In this document: positions 5,608 through 40,865 of the stretch, piece after piece
Layout of the letters: the number at the start of each line of letters is the position of its first letter
Position numbering within the stretch: the stretch's first letter is position 1
Virus record (IMG/VR): IMGVR_UViG_3300045988_152627
Strand: one strand, 5' to 3'
Source of the DNA: a virus
Lineage: Duplodnaviria; Heunggongvirae; Uroviricota; Caudoviricetes
DNA: 46,969 nucleotides
Position numbers and translations under genes: made by a program
The notes under the pieces: generated by a model
Seen by the model: only the letters and a program-made list of their open reading frames with translations
The model's database searches: none
Told to the model about the DNA's origin: nothing

Positions 5608-5815
5608 TGTTGCGTCTCCACGGAGGCAAATTGTTTACTGATATTGGCATAACCGGAGCATCAGGAACTTTAAGAATAATTCCCGCAGAAAAAAGCACCG
5701 TAAAGCGGTGCTCAGTATTAGCATCAATAAGAAGATAAGACAGGTACTCATTACCATACAACTTTAACGCGATACTATCCCATGAGTCCCCTTGAACCGT
5801 TCTATAATCATCCAA
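5597..5815 (-). CDS. Tail protein X-like (LysM-like)
   Basis: 72 aa with a LysM-like pattern (YRTVQGDSWDSIALKLYG); sits between tape measure and gpD-like. Confidence 0.55.
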   Translation of the reverse strand: MDDYRTVQGDSWDSIALKLYGNEYLSYLLIDANTEHRFTVLFSAGIILKVPDAPVMPISVNNLPPWRRNSVT

Positions 5816-8600
5816 AACTTAATCTCCGTTGTTGGAACATATGAGCACTCAATTTCTTCTCAAAATCAGAATATCCCGCATCTAATGCTCTTTTAGCTGC
5901 CGCCTCAGTTTCCTTTGGTGAACCAGCCGGAAGATTGATTACAGGTGAATAGGTTATTCCACCAGTCACAGCGTTAACGTTCTGGCGAGTTCCAGAAGTC
6001 CCGGCGGCAGATATCCCGTGAGGTGATAAATTTGATTGCCCGAACTTGGTTGCTATTGCATTCTGTAAGCTGTTATTCCTGCTAACACCTGATGCCAGAG
6101 TAGTCATTATTGCCCCCCCTGACTTTGTTAGCTGTGTGAATGGACCTTTTTTCGCGTCAGAGAACGGTAAATACTCACGTACAGAAGAAAAAACGCCTTT
6201 CACTTCATTAATTAAAGCATTTGCTTTTGATTTTATCCCAGTGATTAACGTCTCAATTATTTTTGCACCTGACTCACTCCAGTTTATTCCAGATAAATAA
6301 GCCGTTACAGATTGGAATGCTCTTATAAAGAGTCCAACTGGTGAAAAACGCATAAAAACAGACACCAGTGTATCTATGATTTTCTTTCCTGTTTCACTCC
6401 AGTTAATGCCAGAAAGGTAATTTGTTGTAAGTTTAAATGCTTTAATTAAGAACGGAAGCGGAGACATCCATTTAAAAGCACTAATTAATGTACTGTAAAT
6501 TCTTACTCCTGCCGAACTCCAGTTTATGTTGGAAAGATAATCCCATGCTTTACCAAACATAGATATAATCCATCCATTGAGATCAAAGTTTAAGATAAAG
6601 TTTTTTATAGCTTCAAACGATTTAACTGTATATTCCTTAACAGAAGGCCAAACTCTGACAGCATAATCTCTGATCTTATCCCAGTTCTGATAGAGCAATA
6701 TTCCTGCGGCAACCAGCGCAGATATAGCCATCTGAATCCACCCGAAGGGTGTTAGCTTTGTCGCTACAGATAAAGCCAGCATAGCTACCCTACACGCTAT
6801 AACCACACTTTTCATGGTTAGAAACGCACCTGCCGCCATCACAATCTGAGACACAAAATTGGGGTTGTTAGCTACAAATTCACTAATTTTTGTAATCAGC
6901 GGAACCAAAACACTAAGCGCGGCATTCAAAGCAGGTTGCAAGGCCTGACCAAAACTTAATGATGCATTGCTAGCCTGAATACGTAATTGTTTCAATCGCT
7001 CCGCATTGTCTTTCGTTATGTTGGTAAAATCGCGGTCAATAACAGCACTTCCAGCACCAAGAGATGTTGCTTTGATTCTCTGGTATTCCTTCCAGTTTTG
7101 AATCATCGGACGAACAAAGTTCTGAACCTGCATATCGCCAAATAGCTCACCAAGTAACTTCTGATCTCCGTTCTTAGTCATTTTCATGACAGAATGCATT
7201 GCAGCTTCGAATGGATTCTTCCCTTTTTTCTGCGCTGTTGTGACAATTTTATATAAATCTACACCGAAATTTTTCTTTGCTTTTTTTAGTGTTTCAGGGG
7301 AAAGTATTTTCGCCAAAAAGTTGTTCATGTTATTAGCAGCCTCATCCGAAGTTGCAGCACCTTTGCGAGCTATCTGCAAAGCTGCCCCCATCGTCGCGGC
7401 GGCTTCTTTACCTCCCATTTTTAATGCCTGGAACTGGGCACCAAGCACAGGAAGATTTTTGGCCATATCTTTAAATTCAAAGTTTCCCTCTTTCCCTGCC
7501 TGAACCAGAATCCCCATTGCAGACTTCATTTGAGATGGATCAATCTTCAATGAGTCACTTAATGTAAATGATGCTTTCGAGACATCGAGGATATCAGAGC
7601 CAGTAGCTGTAGCTGTTCGCCCAATAGTTAGTAGATTCGCCTGAGCCTCTTTATAATCCTGCCCAGCAGCGACAAGAAAACCCTGAGCGGCCTGAATATC
7701 AGATGCAAACTGGTTGGTGGCCGTTCCGGTAACAAGCATCGCCTGCCCCATCGCCTGAACTTCTTCCGGCTTCATATCTGCCGTAAGACCAATCATTTTG
7801 TTTTCACGATTGAAATTTGCTGCATTGTTAGCAGCAGCAAATGCACCAGCCGCTACAGCACCAGTTTGTAATCCTGACCTTACAAGTTGACTCTTTGCCT
7901 CACCAAGATGCTCTCGCTTCAATTCACGCTGCCTTTCCAACGCGCGGTTTAACTCCTCCTGAGCACGTTTTACTGCAAGAACATTTTTCCGTGCTTCAGC
8001 CAACGCATTTTTATAGCTGTTAATTTTATCAATACGTTGTTTTTCTAATGCCCGGTTAAGTTCCTCCTGCTGTTTTTTCACTTGCTGAACATTTGCTCTG
8101 GCTAAAGCCAAAGCCGTTCTGTAGCGGTTAACCTGCTCAACGCTACGGGCCTGAGCCTCACGATTACGATCAATGCTTGCTTTAAGCTCTTTCTCTCTTG
8201 AGGCTAAAGCTCTGGCAGATGTATCAGCTCCCTGATACGCAGACTTTAAAGCGGCCAGTTCTTCACGCTGAGAACGTAGTGATGCTCGTAAATTTGATGA
8301 ATGTGTTTTTGCCTTCTCAAAGTCACGAAGCATCGCTCTGGTTGGATTGGCCGTGTTTTTTATTTGCTTCTGTAACTCTTCAACGCGAGCAGCAGCTTTA
8401 TGATATTCGAGGGCAGTCTGTCCAACCTTTACTTTTACAGATTGTAGCTTTTGAATTTCCCCATGTTCTTTCGTTAATCCAGCAAGCTCTGCATTTAATT
8501 TAGCAACAGCCTGATTAGCTGTAGTAAAACTTTTGGGGAGAGAGGCGGCAACTTTGCCGCCAATTTCAAAAGCCAGCTTAAAGTTCTTATTGCTGGCCAT
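5808..8600 (-). CDS. Tail tape measure protein
   Basis: 930 aa; N-terminal coiled-coil repeats, central hydrophobic segment; follows the frameshifted chaperone pair. Confidence 0.85.
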   Translation of the reverse strand: MASNKNFKLAFEIGGKVAASLPKSFTTANQAVAKLNAELAGLTKEHGEIQKLQSVKVKVGQTALEYHKAAARVEELQKQIKNTANPTRAMLRDFEKAKTHSSNLRASLRSQREELAALKSAYQGADTSARALASREKELKASIDRNREAQARSVEQVNRYRTALALARANVQQVKKQQEELNRALEKQRIDKINSYKNALAEARKNVLAVKRAQEELNRALERQRELKREHLGEAKSQLVRSGLQTGAVAAGAFAAANNAANFNRENKMIGLTADMKPEEVQAMGQAMLVTGTATNQFASDIQAAQGFLVAAGQDYKEAQANLLTIGRTATATGSDILDVSKASFTLSDSLKIDPSQMKSAMGILVQAGKEGNFEFKDMAKNLPVLGAQFQALKMGGKEAAATMGAALQIARKGAATSDEAANNMNNFLAKILSPETLKKAKKNFGVDLYKIVTTAQKKGKNPFEAAMHSVMKMTKNGDQKLLGELFGDMQVQNFVRPMIQNWKEYQRIKATSLGAGSAVIDRDFTNITKDNAERLKQLRIQASNASLSFGQALQPALNAALSVLVPLITKISEFVANNPNFVSQIVMAAGAFLTMKSVVIACRVAMLALSVATKLTPFGWIQMAISALVAAGILLYQNWDKIRDYAVRVWPSVKEYTVKSFEAIKNFILNFDLNGWIISMFGKAWDYLSNINWSSAGVRIYSTLISAFKWMSPLPFLIKAFKLTTNYLSGINWSETGKKIIDTLVSVFMRFSPVGLFIRAFQSVTAYLSGINWSESGAKIIETLITGIKSKANALINEVKGVFSSVREYLPFSDAKKGPFTQLTKSGGAIMTTLASGVSRNNSLQNAIATKFGQSNLSPHGISAAGTSGTRQNVNAVTGGITYSPVINLPAGSPKETEAAAKRALDAGYSDFEKKLSAHMFQQRRLSFG

Positions 8601-26083: not shown

Positions 26084-26159
26084 TTGGTGGCCCCTACCGG
26101 ATTTGAACCGATGACCGTGCGATTATGAGTCGCCTGCTCTAACCACTGAGCTAAGGGGC
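26084..26159 (-). tRNA. tRNA with CAU anticodon, most similar to tRNA-Ile2 (ileX-type); elongator Met not excluded
   Basis: 76-nt cloverleaf GGCCCCTTAGCTCAGTGGTTAGAGCAGGCGACTCATAATCGCACGGTCATCGGTTCAAATCCGGTAGGGGCCACCA: 7-bp acceptor stem, D and T arms, CTCATAA anticodon loop, encoded CCA. Confidence 0.85.
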
Positions 26160-26329
26160 CATATTTGATCTGTTTGTCTGGTGTGGCGCCGCGCACGAAA
26201 ATCCCAGCCAATAAATTCAGGATTTTTGGGCGCGGCGGCATATCAGACAAACATGGTTGATGCGTGCGCCCATGAGAAAAGCGCATAGAATGTTGTAACT
26301 ATATATTTATATAATTATAGAAATATATA

Positions 26330-34847: not shown

Positions 34848-35504
34848 ATGAAAAGCAACGACGAGAACATCAAGAAAGAAATAGGTCTGCGCATTCAGAC
34901 TCTACGGAAACAATCCGGCATGACTGCCGGAGATCTCCAGCAAGTCACTGGAATAGGCTTAAGCACCTTGCAGAACTATGAGGCCGGATTAAGACAACCA
35001 TCTATACCTGCCATCAAGAAAATCGCGCACGCCCTGAAAGCATCAGCGCCTTATATCGCGTGCTTAACAGATAACCCGTTCCCACCCCAGAATACTAACG
35101 CTCCTGTTATTCCTGGGCTTGTAGCTATAAAAAATGACATAGCATCGCACGCCGGAGAAAAGCCAGTGCTGGCGATAGAACAGGAGATTCTACGAAGCAA
35201 GAACATCAACCCATCGTCTCTGTCAGTTCTCCAGAGCAACGATGAGTTAATGTCACCAACAATATCCCCAGGCTCCCAAGTCCTGATTAATACAGACGAT
35301 ACAGAGATTCATGAGGGGATCTATGCCCTTGAAGACAGAAATGGCCTGGTTGTTTTGAGGCACTGTAGAGTCATACCGGGTGACAATGCTGTTATGCTGT
35401 CAACCGAAAGGGATGCTGAAATGAACACTAATCATCTGAATAACGAGGAATTTAAGCGTTATAAAGTTCTTGGCCGCGTAGTTAGTGTTGTCAACTGGTT
35501 ATGA
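34848..35504 (+). CDS. CI-like repressor (XRE HTH + S24/LexA-like C-terminal domain)
   Basis: 218 aa; HTH TAGDLQQVTGIGLSTLQNYEAG; C-terminal LexA/UmuD-like layout ending KVLGRVVSVVNWL. Confidence 0.8.
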   Translation: MKSNDENIKKEIGLRIQTLRKQSGMTAGDLQQVTGIGLSTLQNYEAGLRQPSIPAIKKIAHALKASAPYIACLTDNPFPPQNTNAPVIPGLVAIKNDIASHAGEKPVLAIEQEILRSKNINPSSLSVLQSNDELMSPTISPGSQVLINTDDTEIHEGIYALEDRNGLVVLRHCRVIPGDNAVMLSTERDAEMNTNHLNNEEFKRYKVLGRVVSVVNWL

Positions 35505-36106: not shown

Positions 36107-36775
36107 ATGGAGTCTCGACAAATGACTATCTCTGTAGGTATTTTCAACGGAAAAGGCGGCGTAACCAAATCAACAATTGCCCGTGCTTTAGCAGTTGCTT
36201 ATGCAAAGGCCGGCTGGAATGTATGCCTGATCGATATGGATGTGCTTAACGGAACGGTAACGCGTTGGGTACAACGCAGAATGGCCAACAATATCGAACC
36301 TGCAATCGCGGCGCAGCCGTGCGGCACGCCATCACAAGTCCAGAAAATCATCGAATCAGAAGTATACGACCTGGTTATCGTTGATGGCGGTGCCTACGCA
36401 TCTGAATCAGTACCGAAGCTCTCTGAATTTCTGGATATGGTTATTTTGCCAACCAGATTCTCTACCGATGACCTAGAAACCACCGTTAACACAGCTCACG
36501 GCATCGTTAAAAAGGGTGTACCAATCAAGAAAATTTGCATGGTGTTTTCCGGCGCGGCTGAAAACGAAGCTGACTATATTGAAGCCCAAGAGTACCTGGC
36601 TAATACGCCATACTTTGTTGTCGATAAGTACATTCCCCACAAGCCAGCTCTGAGCAAAGCTCAGGATAAGGGCTTAAGCCTCATTGAGTGCTCATACGTT
36701 GCGCCACGCAAAAAGGCAGACGACGTTATTCAGGGGATTATCAACCAGCTTGAGGCTCTGACTACTGCCGCGTAA
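36107..36775 (+). CDS. parA: ParA-family partition ATPase (small, type Ib)
   Basis: 222 aa with deviant Walker A NGKGGVTKST and later VIVDGGA motif. Confidence 0.85.
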   Translation: MESRQMTISVGIFNGKGGVTKSTIARALAVAYAKAGWNVCLIDMDVLNGTVTRWVQRRMANNIEPAIAAQPCGTPSQVQKIIESEVYDLVIVDGGAYASESVPKLSEFLDMVILPTRFSTDDLETTVNTAHGIVKKGVPIKKICMVFSGAAENEADYIEAQEYLANTPYFVVDKYIPHKPALSKAQDKGLSLIECSYVAPRKKADDVIQGIINQLEALTTAA

Positions 36776-36818: not shown

Positions 36819-37067
36819 ATGGCCGCACCATCAAAACCACCAAAGAAGAACAGCAAAGGCGTACCGCCATCGATCGAACAACCGCAGGTTTTCGACCCGA
36901 CTGAAACGCCAACCAGAACCAAATCAGGTGGGGCACAAATGGCGTTTAACGTCGACCCTGAATTTAAACGCGAGTACAAAACGTTCGCCAGCTCAATGGA
37001 TATGTCATTGAAAGAAGTGCTGACAAAATCTTTTGAGTTACTCAAGGCTCAATACAACCAGAAGTAA
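36819..37067 (+). CDS. ParG-like ribbon-helix-helix centromere-binding protein
   Basis: 82 aa; Pro/Lys-rich tail then RHH-like MAFNVDPEFKREYKTFASSMDMSLKEVL; directly downstream of parA. Confidence 0.6.
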   Translation: MAAPSKPPKKNSKGVPPSIEQPQVFDPTETPTRTKSGGAQMAFNVDPEFKREYKTFASSMDMSLKEVLTKSFELLKAQYNQK

Positions 37068-37279: not shown

Positions 37280-37295
37280 ATTCAACCATAAAAAA

Positions 37296-37311
37296 GGCCC
37301 CCGAAGGGGCC
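37296..37311. terminator. Bidirectional terminator hairpin GGCCCCCGAAGGGGCC
   Basis: Perfect GC-rich hairpin flanked by an A-run upstream and T-rich sequence on the opposite strand. Confidence 0.55.
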
Positions 37312-37877
37312 TAATCGCTACTTGCTGCTAATGTTTATCGTCACATTCAGAGCGTTATCAGTAATCTTCCAACCCTCCCCATGTGGCGTAAACAAAGCCC
37401 CAGTAACAACGATAAAAATACACATACAGTATTTTTTCATTGTATGGCCCTTACAGGCCGTTTCACGGCATCCCCACCGACGAAAACAACGCGAGAGCAA
37501 GCACGGCTGCTTGTGCTTGCATGTACGGCAACAGGAAATCCTCCCCTAAAGTCGGTGCCCGGGTGCGAATCGGCGGGAAGGTCCACAGGTATTTTACGAT
37601 TATTTTAAGATTAGTAATAGGAAATAAATTAAACGAAAAAACCAGTTTATTTTCACAAAATCAGTAACCTACCCACAATCTGTGAGTTTGCAGACACAAC
37701 AAGAACCACAATTTTTTGAAGCATAATAGTGGACTATTATTACCTTTTGGGTAAAATCAACTTGCTGCTTGTGCTTGCGTGGTTGTTTATACAACAACGT
37801 AATGCTGAAAGGACCGCGAATCCGATCAGCACGAAAGAACCGTCCTCAATAGGGCGGTTTTTTTGTTTCTTCACTCA

Positions 37878-38417
37878 TTAAAACAGTCCAAGACCTGTTA
37901 ATGGCTTCTGATAATCTCGATTATTCATATCAGCGCCGTTATCGACCCAATTTCTATATGCTTCATCGCAACAATACATTACAGCAGTTGGAGTATCTGG
38001 GATGCCGCCCCCAAATGAGAATCCCATTGAGCTAATGCTAACTCTTTCTAATGGCCTATTTCTCAATGCTTCAAACCCCTTGCTATTAAAGTAACGCAGC
38101 ATCAGAGGTAAAAGGTTATCCTCGTCCTGACTGATTGTTCCAGGGAAAAAGTAGTAACCATAACGGTTAAATTCGGGAATAAGATTTTCTACCAATGACA
38201 TGAAATTCACTGGAGTAATATTAAGGGCTGTGAAAGCACCAAAAAGGGCGTCAACTGTTAATACAGACTGCCCGTTCTCTATCTTTGTCCATGCGTTTGG
38301 TGTTTTTCCAGCAGCTTGAGCCAGTACTCCTTGATGCACACCTCTTTCTAGCCTAAGTTCTTTTATGATCATTAGGTGAATTGTTGAAAAACATGAGTTT
38401 TTTGACTGTTCAATCAT
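37878..38417 (-). CDS. XRE-type HTH domain fused to an uncharacterised C-terminal domain
   Basis: 179 aa; N-terminal HTH LAQAAGKTPNAWTKIENGQSVLTVDALF; low-GC gene flanked by AT-rich non-coding DNA. Confidence 0.5.
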   Translation of the reverse strand: MIEQSKNSCFSTIHLMIIKELRLERGVHQGVLAQAAGKTPNAWTKIENGQSVLTVDALFGAFTALNITPVNFMSLVENLIPEFNRYGYYFFPGTISQDEDNLLPLMLRYFNSKGFEALRNRPLERVSISSMGFSFGGGIPDTPTAVMYCCDEAYRNWVDNGADMNNRDYQKPLTGLGLF

Positions 38418-38554
38418 TTTTTATCCCCATATTGAATTTTTTCTTTGTTCCCAACTTTAACAAAACACCACAACTTAGGAATGTATAGTTCCTTAAATGA
38501 ATCATACATTCCCACCTTCGGTATATCAAGAAAATTAAAAGCTCGGCATTCAAA

Positions 38555-38569
38555 CCCACACTATGTGGT
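38555..38569. promoter_or_regulatory. Operator-like palindrome CCCACACTATGTGGT upstream of the antirepressor operon
   Basis: CCAC-N5-GTGG pattern 25 bp upstream of a TTGACA element at 38593..38598. Confidence 0.45.
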
Positions 38570-38864
38570 TGTCTCTGTTAAAATCCCGCCGTATTGACAT
38601 GAATGCGCCATTGGTGGACACTTTCCGAGCCGTAGCAAAATCTACGGTCGGGATTAGCCTCCTGAATAACACGATGGCGCATACCGCGTTAGCGGTTTTT
38701 TTATGCGTAGAGCACTGTTACGCCCAAATTATGGTGGGTCGTACAGGGGCGGAGAAATCCGCGCCGGTTCGTCATTGTGTCCGGTAAGGCTAACCCTGTA
38801 CGGCTCACCACCATTTGATTAGCCTCGAATGGCGGTGATAGTTCCATATATTGGAGATATCACA

Positions 38865-39056
38865 ATGACAAACTTACCCCATGACTATTACGTCAACCTC
38901 GTAAAGATCCTTCTCAAGAAAGCCTCATACGCCGATAAATTCCGCCTGGCTGAAATAATCGAGCGCGAAGCTATGCGCATCGCCAGCAACGATAACGCTG
39001 TTTCTGACGCAAAAATCTCCCTCGTAACCAAAGTAGTTATGGGAGGTGCAAAATGA
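38865..39056 (+). CDS. Hypothetical small protein, coupled to the antirepressor
   Basis: 63 aa from ATG 38865 (RBS GGAGAT); stop overlaps the antirepressor start. Confidence 0.35.
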   Translation: MTNLPHDYYVNLVKILLKKASYADKFRLAEIIEREAMRIASNDNAVSDAKISLVTKVVMGGAK

Positions 39057-40195
39057 AAACGCTTCCGACCGTTAACACCCTACAGCCTATCCTGCATAAC
39101 CAGATCCCCGTTATCACCACGGAGCTGCTTGCCAAACTATATGGCTGTAGCGTCGAATGTCTTCACAGAAATCACCACCGTAATAAGTCCCGGTTTACAG
39201 AAGGAAAACATTTCATAGTTGTAAAAGGTACAGATCTCCAAAGTTTGAAAATCTCTTTAAGAGATTTTCAAACCATCGCGAATAACGTTAGAAAGCTCAT
39301 CCTCTGGACCGAACGCGGGGCTGCACGTCACGCTAAAATGCTCGAAACCGATCAGGCATGGGATGTATTCGAACGGCTGGAAGACTGCTACTTCAACCAG
39401 AACGCGCAAACGGCCGCGACCGTAACCGTCTCACCAAACAATGCTCGTGAGGTTGTCGATACGCTCAACGCTAAACCAATGTATTACGTTAAGGTGTGCA
39501 ACAACGAGCCACTCACAACCTCAGCCGATGTTGCCCAAGCATTCAGCACCACAAACAATTCCATCGTTATGGCCATCGATGCGTTACGTATTCCTCGCAC
39601 AGCTGCGGCGCGTCACTTCTTTAAAGAACAACGACCGCTGGAAGGAAGCGACCGCGAAATAACAATCTATCGCATGACAAAAGACGGATTTACCTTGCTC
39701 ATGGAAAGTATCGACGGTCCAGGCGTGAAGGATATCAAGCTGGCCTACATTGAAGCCTTTAACGCTATCAGCAGCGTGTTAAAGGCAGAATACGAGCGAA
39801 TGCTATACAACCGACTGTATCAGGAAACAAAGATTATCCGAACGGCAACAGAACATCATCGGCTATTAACGGAACCAAACTACCGCAAGACACTAATCAA
39901 AGAATTTGACAAGGCGACGGAGAAAACTAAAGCGGCACTAAATCTACCAACAATGACTAAAGATGATGTGATATCAGCCTTACTTCTTGATCTGCTCAGA
40001 AACGCCAGAGCACTTATCAGTTTTGACGAAAACCTGAATCCTCAGCTCAAGCTACTACCACCGACAGGCAAAGTAGTCGACCAAGCAGATCACAACAGCA
40101 TACTCAGCGTACTGGATGCAAACCTGCCAGCCAGGACACTACAGGAGCTGATAAAAATATCTGCGGATAAACTGGCCGCAGGTGCAAAACCATAA
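39053..40195 (+). CDS. Phage antirepressor (KilA-N/ORF6N-like N-terminus plus Rha-like domain)
   Basis: 380 aa; N-terminal ITTELLAKLYGCS...KHFIVVKGTDL and central TSADVAQAFSTTNNSIVMAIDAL resembling the Rha motif. Confidence 0.65.
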   Translation: MKTLPTVNTLQPILHNQIPVITTELLAKLYGCSVECLHRNHHRNKSRFTEGKHFIVVKGTDLQSLKISLRDFQTIANNVRKLILWTERGAARHAKMLETDQAWDVFERLEDCYFNQNAQTAATVTVSPNNAREVVDTLNAKPMYYVKVCNNEPLTTSADVAQAFSTTNNSIVMAIDALRIPRTAAARHFFKEQRPLEGSDREITIYRMTKDGFTLLMESIDGPGVKDIKLAYIEAFNAISSVLKAEYERMLYNRLYQETKIIRTATEHHRLLTEPNYRKTLIKEFDKATEKTKAALNLPTMTKDDVISALLLDLLRNARALISFDENLNPQLKLLPPTGKVVDQADHNSILSVLDANLPARTLQELIKISADKLAAGAKP

Positions 40196-40229: not shown

Positions 40230-40865
40230 TTAATATTTCGGTGTAATCAGTAGCGATACATGCCCTGATTTGTCACGAGAAACGTAATACTCGCCTCTCT
40301 TAGTCTTGAACTCAGCTTTCTGCATATCTGATTTAACAATCTGCTCTAACTGCGCAATCACGGTGTCTCTTTCACTTGACGCATCCAAGACTTCAACTGC
40401 TACGGCCATAGAAAGCAAGGAATCAGAGTTAGGCTTGGATACTCGCCATAATAACTCAGAAATCTTCCCATCCTTATCAACTCTAGCCCGACCGTTAACA
40501 GATGAGTTGATGGCAAATTCAACGGTGTTGTTACCTTGTTTAACAGACTTAATTCTTATAGTGGAGGTGGCTTTTCCTGATGTAGCGATGCCTTCAAGGT
40601 CATCATTATATAACTGCTTAAACTTATCTACGGTCACACCATCAAAAGCAGCTCCGGTAGTAGCCGCAGTGTTGGAGTCTTCTGGGATCAAGGTCACAGC
40701 CGCAAGAGTATTAACAACTACAAAAGTAGCAATCCCGAGAAAGCCACTCACTAAAACAGCTTTGAACTTACCACCAGAAGACGAGGCACATTGTTTCCGA
40801 TATGCGCCACGAACTACGAAGAAACACAAAATCAGGCTAATAATAAACGCCACCAGCATCCCCAT
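40230..40865 (-). CDS. Membrane-anchored protein of unknown function
   Basis: 211 aa; two N-terminal TM helices followed by a soluble Ser/Thr-rich domain. Confidence 0.45.
   Translation of the reverse strand: MGMLVAFIISLILCFFVVRGAYRKQCASSSGGKFKAVLVSGFLGIATFVVVNTLAAVTLIPEDSNTAATTGAAFDGVTVDKFKQLYNDDLEGIATSGKATSTIRIKSVKQGNNTVEFAINSSVNGRARVDKDGKISELLWRVSKPNSDSLLSMAVAVEVLDASSERDTVIAQLEQIVKSDMQKAEFKTKRGEYYVSRDKSGHVSLLITPKY

What the first reader, a model, noticed from the sequence alone, without database searches (positions are those of the whole stretch)
37317..38560. Low-GC island with an HTH-fusion orphan gene
A 179-aa protein combines an XRE-type HTH with an uncharacterised 110-aa C-terminal domain. 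It is embedded in about 1 kb of AT-rich DNA, separated from the partition operon by a terminator and from the antirepressor region by a promoter zone. Single-gene HTH fusions in such islands often act as abortive-infection or exclusion determinants, or as sensors.
Basis: inference. Interest (0 to 1): 0.6.

Follow-up and report, generated by a model that had tools for sequence, protein, structure and literature searches.

The report
Self-regulated HTH accessory gene cassette
The 179-aa gene is real: it is a 681-bp optional cassette on a common E. coli/Yersinia phage-plasmid. It encodes a DNA-binding protein that very probably represses its own promoter and carries an unclassified C-terminal domain, but its payload function (possibly exclusion of rival mobile elements) is unproven.

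Summary
The ORF (37878..38417, minus strand) exists. It has an XRE-type HTH (residues 18-69) and a roughly 95-residue helical C-terminal domain with no Pfam, PHROG, PADLOC, PDB-sequence or fold match. The "1-kb AT-rich island" is overstated: GC is 40.4% against 44.4% for the window, the 20th percentile.

Half of that stretch is not empty. It holds an unannotated timP/timR (ryfA) type I toxin-antitoxin module, and the "terminator" is timP's. On the other side lies a P1-like immI module (isrK/c4 RNAs, then the antirepressor).

The gene, its promoter and a 35-bp double dyad form a discrete 681-bp indel (37871..38551). About 43 of 59 related plasmids lack it.

Homologues form a modest family of about 100 clusters. 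They are always solitary and sit in accessory positions: the P2 gpA-portal hotspot, lambdoid moron sites, plasmids, and next to Hachiman, Gabija and NsnA. Thirteen of 17 carry a GGAA-N7-TTCC dyad in their own promoter region (14 hits against 0.14 expected). In the 47-kb window that dyad occurs only there.

Best reading: an autoregulated accessory repressor. A defence or exclusion role is plausible from context but untested. Interest is moderate.

The parts
37871..38551 (.). The accessory cassette: a 681-bp presence/absence segment holding the gene, its promoter and its operator.
   Evidence: Alignment with the empty-site plasmids pESBL3215 and pE16EC0240-3. They read ...GGGCGGTTTTTTTGTTTCT|GCCTACCAAT|AAACCCAC..., so 10 bp replace the 681 bp. 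GC is 38.5%. About 43 of 59 PLSDB relatives are empty at this site and about 16 are occupied.
37878..38417 (-). CDS of 179 aa: XRE-type HTH plus a family-specific C-terminal domain.
   Evidence: ORF list. Full-length homologues. AF2 model with pLDDT 83.9 and pTM 0.81.
38211..38366 (-). HTH_3/HTH_31 DNA-binding domain (residues 18-69).
37923..38210 (-). Conserved C-terminal helical domain (residues 70 to about 165). Residues 166-179 form a variable, low-confidence tail.
38501..38529 (-). Sigma-70-like promoter of the gene: TTGATA, 17 nt, TATGAT (10 of 12 matches).
   Evidence: Consensus scan. It lies inside the cassette.
38478..38512 (.). 35-bp double dyad, the candidate operator. It comprises GGAATGTATAGTTCC (38478-38492, about +2 to +16) and TGAATCATACATTCC (38498-38512, overlapping the -10). 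The centres are 20 bp apart.
   Evidence: Inverted repeat I2. It is the only GGAA-N7-TTCC in the 46,969-bp window. The same dyad lies upstream of homologues in 13 of 17 loci, 14 hits against 0.14 expected.
38424..38428 (-). Shine-Dalgarno sequence GGGGA, 6 nt upstream of the ATG.
   Evidence: Read from the sequence.
37290..37586 (-). Neighbour inside the finding's coordinates: ryfA/timP type I toxin mRNA. It includes a 40-aa ORF (37318..37440) and an intrinsic terminator (37295..37312).
   Evidence: Rfam RF00126: 143 bits against a gathering score of 80, E 3.6e-38. The ORF starts at +147. Terminator.
37730..37866 (+). Neighbour: candidate TimR-like antitoxin sRNA (about 37764..37866). It has a promoter TGGACT-16-TAAAAT (37730..37757) and a terminator (37840..37864).
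   Evidence: Its 5' 18 nt (37764-37781) are complementary to timP mRNA positions +64..+81, counting one G-U pair. A C/T difference covaries between sRNA and target in two allele types. Fold z-score is -5.5. Promoter.
38616..38815 (+). Neighbour: P1-type immI leader RNAs. isrK/c4-a1b1 lies at 38616..38702 and the C4 antisense RNA at 38727..38815.
   Evidence: Rfam isrK 65.7 bits (gathering score 50) and C4 70.8 bits (gathering score 45).
38829..40195 (+). Neighbour: a 75-aa ORF (phrog_7886) followed by the antirepressor (ORF6N + Phage_pRha).

Best explanation
The finding is a self-contained 681-bp accessory ('moron') cassette. It sits between the terminator of a TimR-like sRNA and the immI (c4-antirepressor) promoter of a ~48-kb phage-plasmid found in Escherichia and Yersinia. 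It encodes an XRE-family DNA-binding protein.

Proposed mechanism:
- The N-terminal HTH recognises a GGAAC-N5-GTTCC-type dyad.
- Two such dyads, 20 bp apart, cover the -10 and the start region of the gene's own promoter, so the protein represses itself.
- It probably binds as two cooperating dimers held together by the novel helical C-terminal domain.
- No second strict site exists on the element. Its useful output must therefore lie elsewhere: either repression of matching sites on other genomes (incoming phages or plasmids, or the host), or protein-protein contacts made by the C-domain.
- I consider a role in conflict between mobile elements (superinfection exclusion or heteroimmunity acting through DNA binding) the most likely payload.

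Status of each step:
- Shown: the gene, the domains, the cassette boundaries, presence/absence among relatives, the conserved promoter-proximal dyad, and the solitary, mobile distribution.
- Inferred: DNA binding at that dyad, autorepression, and oligomerisation through the C-domain.
- Speculative: the exclusion role.
For: - Gene and HTH.
- Discrete indel with its own promoter.
- Optional in the lineage: about 16 of 59 PLSDB plasmids and 20 of 72 RefSeq E. coli genomes carry it.
- Foreign codon composition: GC3 0.34 against about 0.49.
- Operator: a 35-bp double dyad overlaps the -10 and +1.
- GGAA-N7-TTCC lies within -300..+60 of the start codon in 13 of 17 homologous loci from unrelated contexts and genera, 14 hits against 0.14 expected. 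With the looser criterion of at least 8 of 10 matches, there are 18 hits against 2.25 expected.
- It is the only strict site in the window.
- Paired sites are seen in several loci, but the spacing was measured in only two: 20 bp in L012 and 40 bp in L025. In L022, L031 and L032 a second site roughly 20 bp from the first was read by eye from the output.
- The C-domain is conserved along the whole family yet has only D100 and L102 near-invariant. That fits a structural or interaction domain rather than an enzyme.
- The model is compact (pTM 0.81), with the N-terminal strand pairing with a strand of the C-domain.
- There is no conserved neighbour.
- Positions: the P2 gpA-portal hotspot (PMC9122126); upstream of a tail-sheath-like ORF identified by eye; a lambdoid NinG-terminase slot; plasmids; and beside HamB, GajA, DUF262 and NsnA.
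Against: - No binding or phenotype data exist.
- The dyad could be bound by another factor.
- The more distant subfamily (30-39% identity) mostly lacks this dyad.
- Association with defence loci is anecdotal (about 8 loci) and was not tested against a null. Variable regions collect all kinds of cargo, including plain regulators.
- PADLOC gives only generic HTH hits.
- A repressor whose only site on its own element is its own promoter has no demonstrated target.
Confidence: 0.55

Rival explanations
1. Sensor-effector abortive-infection or defence protein. The HTH only keeps expression low. The C-terminal domain senses a phage product and/or is itself the toxic effector, by analogy with fused toxin-antitoxin defence proteins such as CapRel (from my own knowledge).
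For: - It is a solitary, autoregulated gene in hotspots and defence islands.
- The C-domain has no known fold.
- Unknown genes in P2/P4 hotspots are often defensive: 6 of 8 tested P4 loci protected (PMC13586616).
Against: - The C-domain is a small helical bundle with hardly any invariant polar residues, so no catalytic signature.
- There is no PADLOC match.
- The model shows the C-domain packed against the HTH as one globule (pTM 0.81), not an autoinhibited two-lobe arrangement.
Confidence: 0.18
2. Orphan antitoxin-like or anti-addiction (or anti-defence) module. The HTH autoregulates. The helical C-domain binds and neutralises a toxin or effector encoded elsewhere, for example by a competing plasmid's TA or a host abortive-infection TA.
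For: - The architecture of an HTH plus a ~90-aa helical C-domain resembles PezA/HipB-type antitoxins. Only the HTH part matches, weakly: NCBIfam couple_hipB at 24.6 bits against a cut-off of 71.65, and PezA and HipB in the PDB profile search.
- One homologue sits next to a ParE toxin pair on a mobilisable plasmid.
- In the window it lies beside another addiction module, timPR.
Against: - No toxin gene is adjacent in any of about 25 loci.
Confidence: 0.1
3. Local regulator of its neighbours. One version is an Mnt-like maintenance repressor of the divergently transcribed c4-antirepressor operon. Another is a modulator of timP/timR, since read-through from the gene would run antisense to TimR and into timP.
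For: - It is divergent from the immI promoter, with a 198-bp intergenic region, and convergent with TimR, sharing its terminator.
- A pRha/ANT gene lies about 1.3 kb from one distant homologue.
Against: - About three quarters of related plasmids keep timPR and immI intact without the cassette.
- Homologues at <=57% identity have no ryfA or C4 nearby.
- No GGAA-N7-TTCC site lies in the immI promoter, the timP/timR region or anywhere else in the window.
Confidence: 0.08
4. Plain lysogenic-conversion regulator acting on host chromosomal genes, or a selfish or decaying passenger with no selected function in this element.
For: - The 3' end is polymorphic: 179 aa here against 190 aa in most relatives, where the reading frame runs into the TimR terminator.
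- Many XRE proteins in prophages regulate host genes (from my own knowledge).
Against: - The family is conserved full-length across Gamma- and Betaproteobacteria at 45-57% identity, together with its operator. That implies selection.
- The variable tail lies outside the conserved domain.
Confidence: 0.09

Closest known systems
Restriction-modification controller (C) proteins, e.g. C.Esp1396I, C.BclI, C.AhdI
   Same: They are the best PDB sequence and fold matches of the HTH. By established knowledge, C proteins autoregulate by cooperative binding of two dimers to a ~35-bp operator made of two dyads at their own promoter. That layout resembles the 35-bp double dyad at 38478-38512.
   Different: C proteins are ~80 aa with no extra domain, and they are always operon-linked to R-M genes. 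Here there is a ~95-aa additional domain and no R-M genes in the window. The sequence match is HTH-only and weak (E 0.08-0.5 with the single sequence).
HTH-type type II antitoxins with a C-terminal toxin-binding domain (PezA, HipB, HigA)
   Same: They share an N-terminal XRE HTH, small size, autoregulation and carriage on mobile elements.
   Different: No cognate toxin gene is present in any locus. The C-domain is unrelated by sequence and fold.
MGE master repressors with sensor domains (SaPIbov1 Stl; phage SPC32H Rep)
   Different: The scores are at HTH-family background. Stl and Rep control adjacent island or phage operons, whereas this protein has no site other than its own promoter on the element.
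Phage lysogenic-conversion exclusion genes at P2 hotspots (old, tin, fun/Z)
   Same: It falls in the same class of genomic slot. A homologue sits between gpA and the portal gene of a Vibrio P2-like prophage. Another sits just upstream of a tail-sheath-like ORF. Each is a single gene with its own promoter and low GC.
   Different: The proteins are unrelated, and no exclusion phenotype is known for this family.
P22 Mnt (repressor of the antirepressor promoter)
   Same: It is a small repressor gene divergent from an antirepressor operon.
   Different: Mnt is a ribbon-helix-helix protein and an obligatory part of immI. This cassette is dispensable for the immI module, and its dyad is absent from the ant promoter.

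Membership tests
XRE/Cro-C1 HTH family (Pfam HTH_3 / HTH_31) | Sequence match above Pfam's gathering score. | tested here: met
   HTH_3 scores 26.5 bits (cut-off 23) and HTH_31 scores 27.4 bits (cut-off 27), residues 18-69. 49 of 57 family members match.
XRE/Cro-C1 HTH family | Five-helix lambda-repressor-like fold. | tested here: met
Autoregulated repressor | A dyad-symmetric site overlapping its own promoter, conserved with the protein. | tested here: met
   The double dyad 38478-38512 overlaps the -10 and +1. The same GGAA-N7-TTCC lies upstream of 13 of 17 homologues, 14 hits against 0.14 expected.
Autoregulated repressor | Physical binding and repression. | not testable with these tools
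   Needs EMSA or footprinting and a reporter assay.
Type II toxin-antitoxin (HTH antitoxin) | An adjacent co-transcribed toxin gene. | tested here: not met
   No conserved neighbour on either side in about 25 loci. In the window the nearest same-strand coding sequence is timP, which belongs to a separate RNA-regulated module.
R-M controller (C) protein | Linkage to restriction and methylase genes; a ~80-aa single-domain protein. | tested here: not met
   The protein is 179 aa with an extra domain, and no R-M genes flank it in the window. Only one distant locus has R-M genes within 3 kb.
CI/LexA-type phage repressor | A C-terminal S24 peptidase or CI dimerisation domain. | tested here: not met
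   This protein has no S24 or CI_C match. The element's CI-like HTH protein, with a sub-threshold Peptidase_S24 match (17.9 bits against a cut-off of 23.3), is a different gene at 34848..35504.
Known anti-phage defence systems (PADLOC-DB v2) | A match to a defence-protein model beyond a generic HTH. | tested here: not met
   Only HTH_VI (E 1.3e-4, residues 17-75), Control_protein and RmrA HTH stretches match.
Anti-phage defence (functional class) | Reduces phage propagation when expressed. | not testable with these tools
   Context only: hotspots and neighbours.
timP/timR (ryfA) type I TA (neighbour inside the finding's coordinates) | ryfA RNA match; a small ORF at about +145; a divergent upstream sRNA whose 5' end is complementary to the 5'UTR and is followed by a terminator (features as described in PMC7667032). 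| tested here: met
   RF00126 scores 143 bits against a gathering score of 80. The 40-aa ORF starts at +147, and 18-nt complementarity lies at +64..+81 with one covarying position. Promoter and terminator are present. Toxicity was not tested.
P1-type immI (c4 antisense RNA - antirepressor) (neighbour) | C4 RNA and a1b1 target elements upstream of an ant gene. | tested here: met
   C4 scores 70.8 bits (gathering score 45) and isrK 65.7 bits (gathering score 50). c4-a1b1 scores 35.7 bits, below its gathering score of 46.7. The ORF6N + pRha antirepressor lies downstream.

The most novel reading that the evidence does not exclude
The protein founds an unrecognised family of single-gene, self-repressed anti-phage or anti-MGE determinants: an XRE HTH plus a novel ~95-aa domain. 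The family moves as a ~0.7-kb promoter-operator-gene unit between P2-like and lambdoid prophages, phage-plasmids, plasmids and chromosomal defence islands. It would act either by repressing invaders that carry GGAAC-N5-GTTCC sites or by sensing a phage protein through the C-domain.
Probability: 0.25. Interest if true: 0.65.

Novelty: new variant of a known kind. Interest (0 to 1): 0.38.

Why it matters
If the cassette proves to exclude phages or plasmids, it would be one of the smallest defence units known: one gene, one promoter, one operator. The target motif is already predicted, so it can be tested directly in a clinically common E. coli phage-plasmid lineage that is also present in ATCC 25922. 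If it does not, it is still a clean example of how phage-plasmids gain and lose regulatory morons. The re-annotation of its surroundings is also useful, because current RefSeq annotation of these plasmids shows none of the flanking RNA features: a plasmid-borne timP/timR type I TA beside the partition genes, and a c4/isrK-controlled antirepressor.

Tried and rejected
- Domain searches of the whole protein (Pfam, PHROGs, PADLOC, NCBIfam, PDB sequences) and of 57 family members found only the HTH.
- Link to ryfA/C4: an Rfam scan of 12 homologous loci showed those RNAs only in the near-identical phage-plasmids, not beside distant homologues. The co-function idea was rejected.
- Mnt-like control of ant was rejected, because empty-site plasmids keep immI and there is no dyad in the ant promoter.
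- Search for further operator copies on the element found none. The 9-mer half-site with one mismatch is at chance level: 18 hits against 12.3 expected.
- Whole-length RNAduplex energy for TimR/timP was uninformative, because shuffles were as good. I relied instead on the local 18-nt complementarity and the covarying base.
- blastn of the timPR region against E. coli chromosomes found no chromosomal ryfA. The plasmid copy is too divergent for blastn, and only the covariance model sees it.
- Literature searches for the Yersinia phages and the ATCC 25922 plasmid found nothing on this gene.

Full report
**1. What is there**

- The window is about 94% identical over this region to the 49-kb circular Yersinia phages vB_YpM_41, 44 and 39.
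- It is 91-98% identical to many ~48-kb non-mobilisable Escherichia plasmids, including the ATCC 25922 plasmid. The element is therefore a phage-plasmid lineage.
- Around the finding, the plus strand carries a CI-like repressor with an HTH and a sub-threshold Peptidase_S24 match (17.9 bits against a cut-off of 23.3; 34848..35504), a ParA (36107..36775) and a small partner ORF (36819..37067). Further on lies an ORF6N + pRha antirepressor (39053..40195).
- The 179-aa ORF lies at 37878..38417 on the minus strand.
- Pfam places an XRE-type HTH at residues 18-69, just above the gathering scores, and nothing else.
- PHROGs, PADLOC, NCBIfam and PDB sequence searches match only that HTH.

**2. The 'island' is mostly not empty**

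- An Rfam scan (confirmed at gathering thresholds) shows that 37290..37586 (minus strand) is a full-length ryfA RNA: 143 bits against a gathering score of 80.
- ryfA is the timP mRNA of the timP/timR type I toxin-antitoxin system (PMC7667032).
- It contains a 40-aa hydrophobic-N-terminus ORF starting at +147. The paper reports +145 for Salmonella.
- It ends at the hairpin 37295..37312, whose T-run is on the minus strand.
- Upstream and on the opposite strand, a promoter-like site (37730..37757) leads into a ~103-nt RNA (37764..37866).
- That RNA folds far better than shuffles (z = -5.5) and ends in a hairpin plus T7.
- Its first 18 nt are complementary to timP +64..+81, more than 60 nt upstream of the start codon. 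This is the arrangement described as diagnostic for TimR homologues (PMC7667032, section 13).
- Two allele types among relatives carry a matching C/T change in both the sRNA and the target.
- On the other side of the HTH gene, 38616..38702 matches isrK/c4-a1b1 and 38727..38815 matches the C4 antisense RNA. A 75-aa ORF and the antirepressor follow. This is a P1-style immI module.
- Compositionally, 37317..38560 is 40.4% GC against 44.4% for the window, the 20th percentile, so it is not an outlier. ryfA itself is 50.8% GC.

**3. The gene is a discrete, optional cassette**

- Alignment with plasmids that lack the gene (pESBL3215 and pE16EC0240-3) puts the boundaries at 37871 and 38551.
- In the empty form, the TimR terminator is joined through 10 bp to the immI promoter region.
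- The 681 bp hold exactly the ORF, a Shine-Dalgarno sequence, a TTGATA-17-TATGAT promoter and a 35-bp near-palindrome.
- A search with the artificially joined flanks found 59 PLSDB plasmids with this site. About 43 are empty and about 16 are occupied by the HTH gene, and no other cargo was seen.
- In RefSeq complete E. coli genomes, 72 carry the flanks and 20 carry the gene.
- The gene's GC3 is 0.34 against about 0.49 for its neighbours.
- Most relatives encode 190 aa. There the frame reads on into the TimR terminator, whereas the window's copy stops 11 codons earlier. The difference lies in a non-conserved, low-confidence tail.

**4. The family**

- The word-indexed search found 25 clusters. 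All are full-length and conserved to about residue 163.
- The exhaustive profile search found 835 representatives at E<=1e-3 and 101 at E<=1e-10, mostly 150-190 aa with the same two-part layout.
- None of 57 members hits a Pfam family in the C-terminal part.
- The AF2 model is confident (pLDDT 83.9, pTM 0.81) and compact. An N-terminal strand (residues 6-9) pairs with a strand at 88-91, followed by five short helices.
- Across 57 members, only D100 and L102 are at least 90% conserved in the C-domain. This looks like an interaction or oligomerisation module, not an enzyme.

**5. Conserved operator, hence autoregulation**

- The 35-bp element consists of GGAATGTATAGTTCC (38478-38492, just downstream of the predicted start) and TGAATCATACATTCC (38498-38512, over the -10). 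The centres are 20 bp apart.
- I extracted the upstream regions of homologues from unrelated contexts: Deefgea, Vibrio, Photobacterium and Pandoraea, plus plasmid and phage contigs from unnamed metagenome or read-archive assemblies.
- GGAA-N7-TTCC, mostly GGAAC-N5-GTTCC, lies within -300..+60 of the start codon in 13 of 17 loci. That is 14 hits against 0.14 expected from the density elsewhere in the same loci.
- Several loci appear to have two sites. The scripted scan measured spacing in only two of them: 20 bp in L012 and 40 bp in L025. The second sites in L022, L031 and L032 were read by eye from the output.
- The 30-39%-identity subfamily mostly lacks this motif.
- In the whole 46,969-bp window the strict motif occurs once, at the gene's own promoter.
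- This is strong comparative evidence that the protein binds and represses its own promoter. It also shows that the protein has no other strict site on the element.

**6. Where the family lives**

No neighbour is conserved. Positions recorded:

- between gpA/Ogr and the portal gene of a Vibrio P2-like prophage. This is the old/tin hotspot defined by Rousset et al. (PMC9122126).
- upstream of a tail-sheath-like ORF in an IMG/VR phage contig (L026). The ORF was identified by eye from its N-terminal sequence; no family search was run on it.
- antisense between NinG and the small-terminase genes of a lambdoid phage.
- next to integrases at Vibrio island or prophage ends.
- on plasmids, one beside RepA/ParA with an Abi_2 gene about 4 kb away, and one beside a ParE pair.
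- in one chromosomal housekeeping context.
- adjacent to Hachiman HamB (Deefgea), between GajA and a DUF262-type gene (Pseudomonas), and beside NsnA/PD-T4-2 (Photobacterium).
- 2.4 kb from PDC-M11A in Vibrio, and near SLATT_5, a PLD nuclease and IS66 in Advenella.

This is the distribution of mobile accessory cargo, enriched by eye for conflict loci. I could not test that enrichment statistically.

**7. Mechanism and rivals**

- Best supported: an autoregulated XRE repressor carried as a moron. The C-domain probably provides dimer-dimer contacts on the double dyad.
- Its payload is unknown. I favour action in trans on other genomes (exclusion or heteroimmunity), because the element itself offers no second site and the cassette is dispensable.
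- Rivals are a sensor-effector Abi protein, an orphan antitoxin-like neutraliser, a local regulator of immI or timPR, and a host-gene regulator or passenger.
- The local-regulator idea is the most clearly disfavoured. Three quarters of relatives run timPR and immI without the cassette. Distant homologues lack those RNAs. The dyad is absent from those promoters.

**8. Comparison with known systems and verdict**

- The protein works like an R-M controller protein or an HTH antitoxin in its predicted self-repression at tandem dyads. It fails the membership tests for both, having no R-M genes, no toxin partner and an extra domain.
- It is not a CI/LexA-type repressor and is in no catalogued defence family.
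- It is best filed as a new variant of a known kind: an XRE autoregulator with an unclassified C-terminal domain, mobile as a ~0.7-kb unit.
- Interest is moderate (0.38). The gene is ordinary in its DNA-binding half, but it is a well-defined, directly testable candidate for a minimal inter-MGE conflict determinant.
- The correction of the surrounding annotation (a plasmid-borne timP/timR and c4/isrK immI) is a useful by-product.

Noticed in passing
window 37290..37866: A complete timP/timR-like (ryfA) type I toxin-antitoxin module lies next to the parA genes of a phage-plasmid. It comprises the toxin mRNA with a 40-aa ORF (MKKYCMCIFIVVTGALFTPHGEGWKITDNALNVTINISSK), a divergent ~103-nt sRNA with 18-nt 5' complementarity, and one covarying base between two allele types. 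No feature is annotated under it in the RefSeq plasmids. It is too divergent from chromosomal ryfA for blastn to detect.
   Followed up: partly
window 38616..38815: A P1-type immI leader lies upstream of a 75-aa ORF and the ORF6N + pRha antirepressor. isrK/c4-a1b1 scores 65.7 bits and the C4 antisense RNA 70.8 bits. The phage-plasmid therefore appears to control its antirepressor by an antisense RNA.
   Followed up: partly
window 37865..37885 versus L001 7840..7870: The 3' end of the gene is polymorphic. The window copy stops at 179 aa. Most relatives (190 aa) read through into the TimR terminator, so that AAAAAAACCGCCC encodes ...KKPP. The cassette's coding end was apparently created by its junction with the flank.
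   Followed up: partly
L006 about 5740..5830 (Advenella MAG contig): Upstream of that homologue the half-site is amplified: three tandem 20-bp repeats TTTTCAGGAACATGCATATC, then TTTTCGAGAACAAAATGTTTT. This may be a different operator architecture.
   Followed up: no
ryfA/TimR region in relatives (L001, L023, L024, L030 versus window, L022, L028, L029): There are two timPR allele types, about 82% identical to each other. Among the eight loci examined, the four with the divergent type all carry the HTH cassette. The window's type is empty in L028 and L029 and occupied in the window and L022. This suggests the cassette spread between backbones by flanking recombination.
   Followed up: no
window 26085..26160 (minus strand): A tRNA-Met (CAT) gene is carried by the phage-plasmid.
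   Followed up: no
window 40230..40865 (minus strand): A 211-aa ORF with a hydrophobic N-terminus lies convergent with the antirepressor. It matches phrog_23465 (unknown function) full-length and has no Pfam or PADLOC match. In some relatives this slot holds a much shorter ORF (186-213 nt), so it may be another variable position.
   Followed up: no
L017 3180..8860 (Pseudomonas sp. LjRoot277): A distant family member (31% identity) sits between a GajA gene (E 2e-196) and a DUF262/Orf5-HEC-06-type gene (E 3e-186). In L002 the homologue directly follows a split Hachiman HamB.
   Followed up: partly
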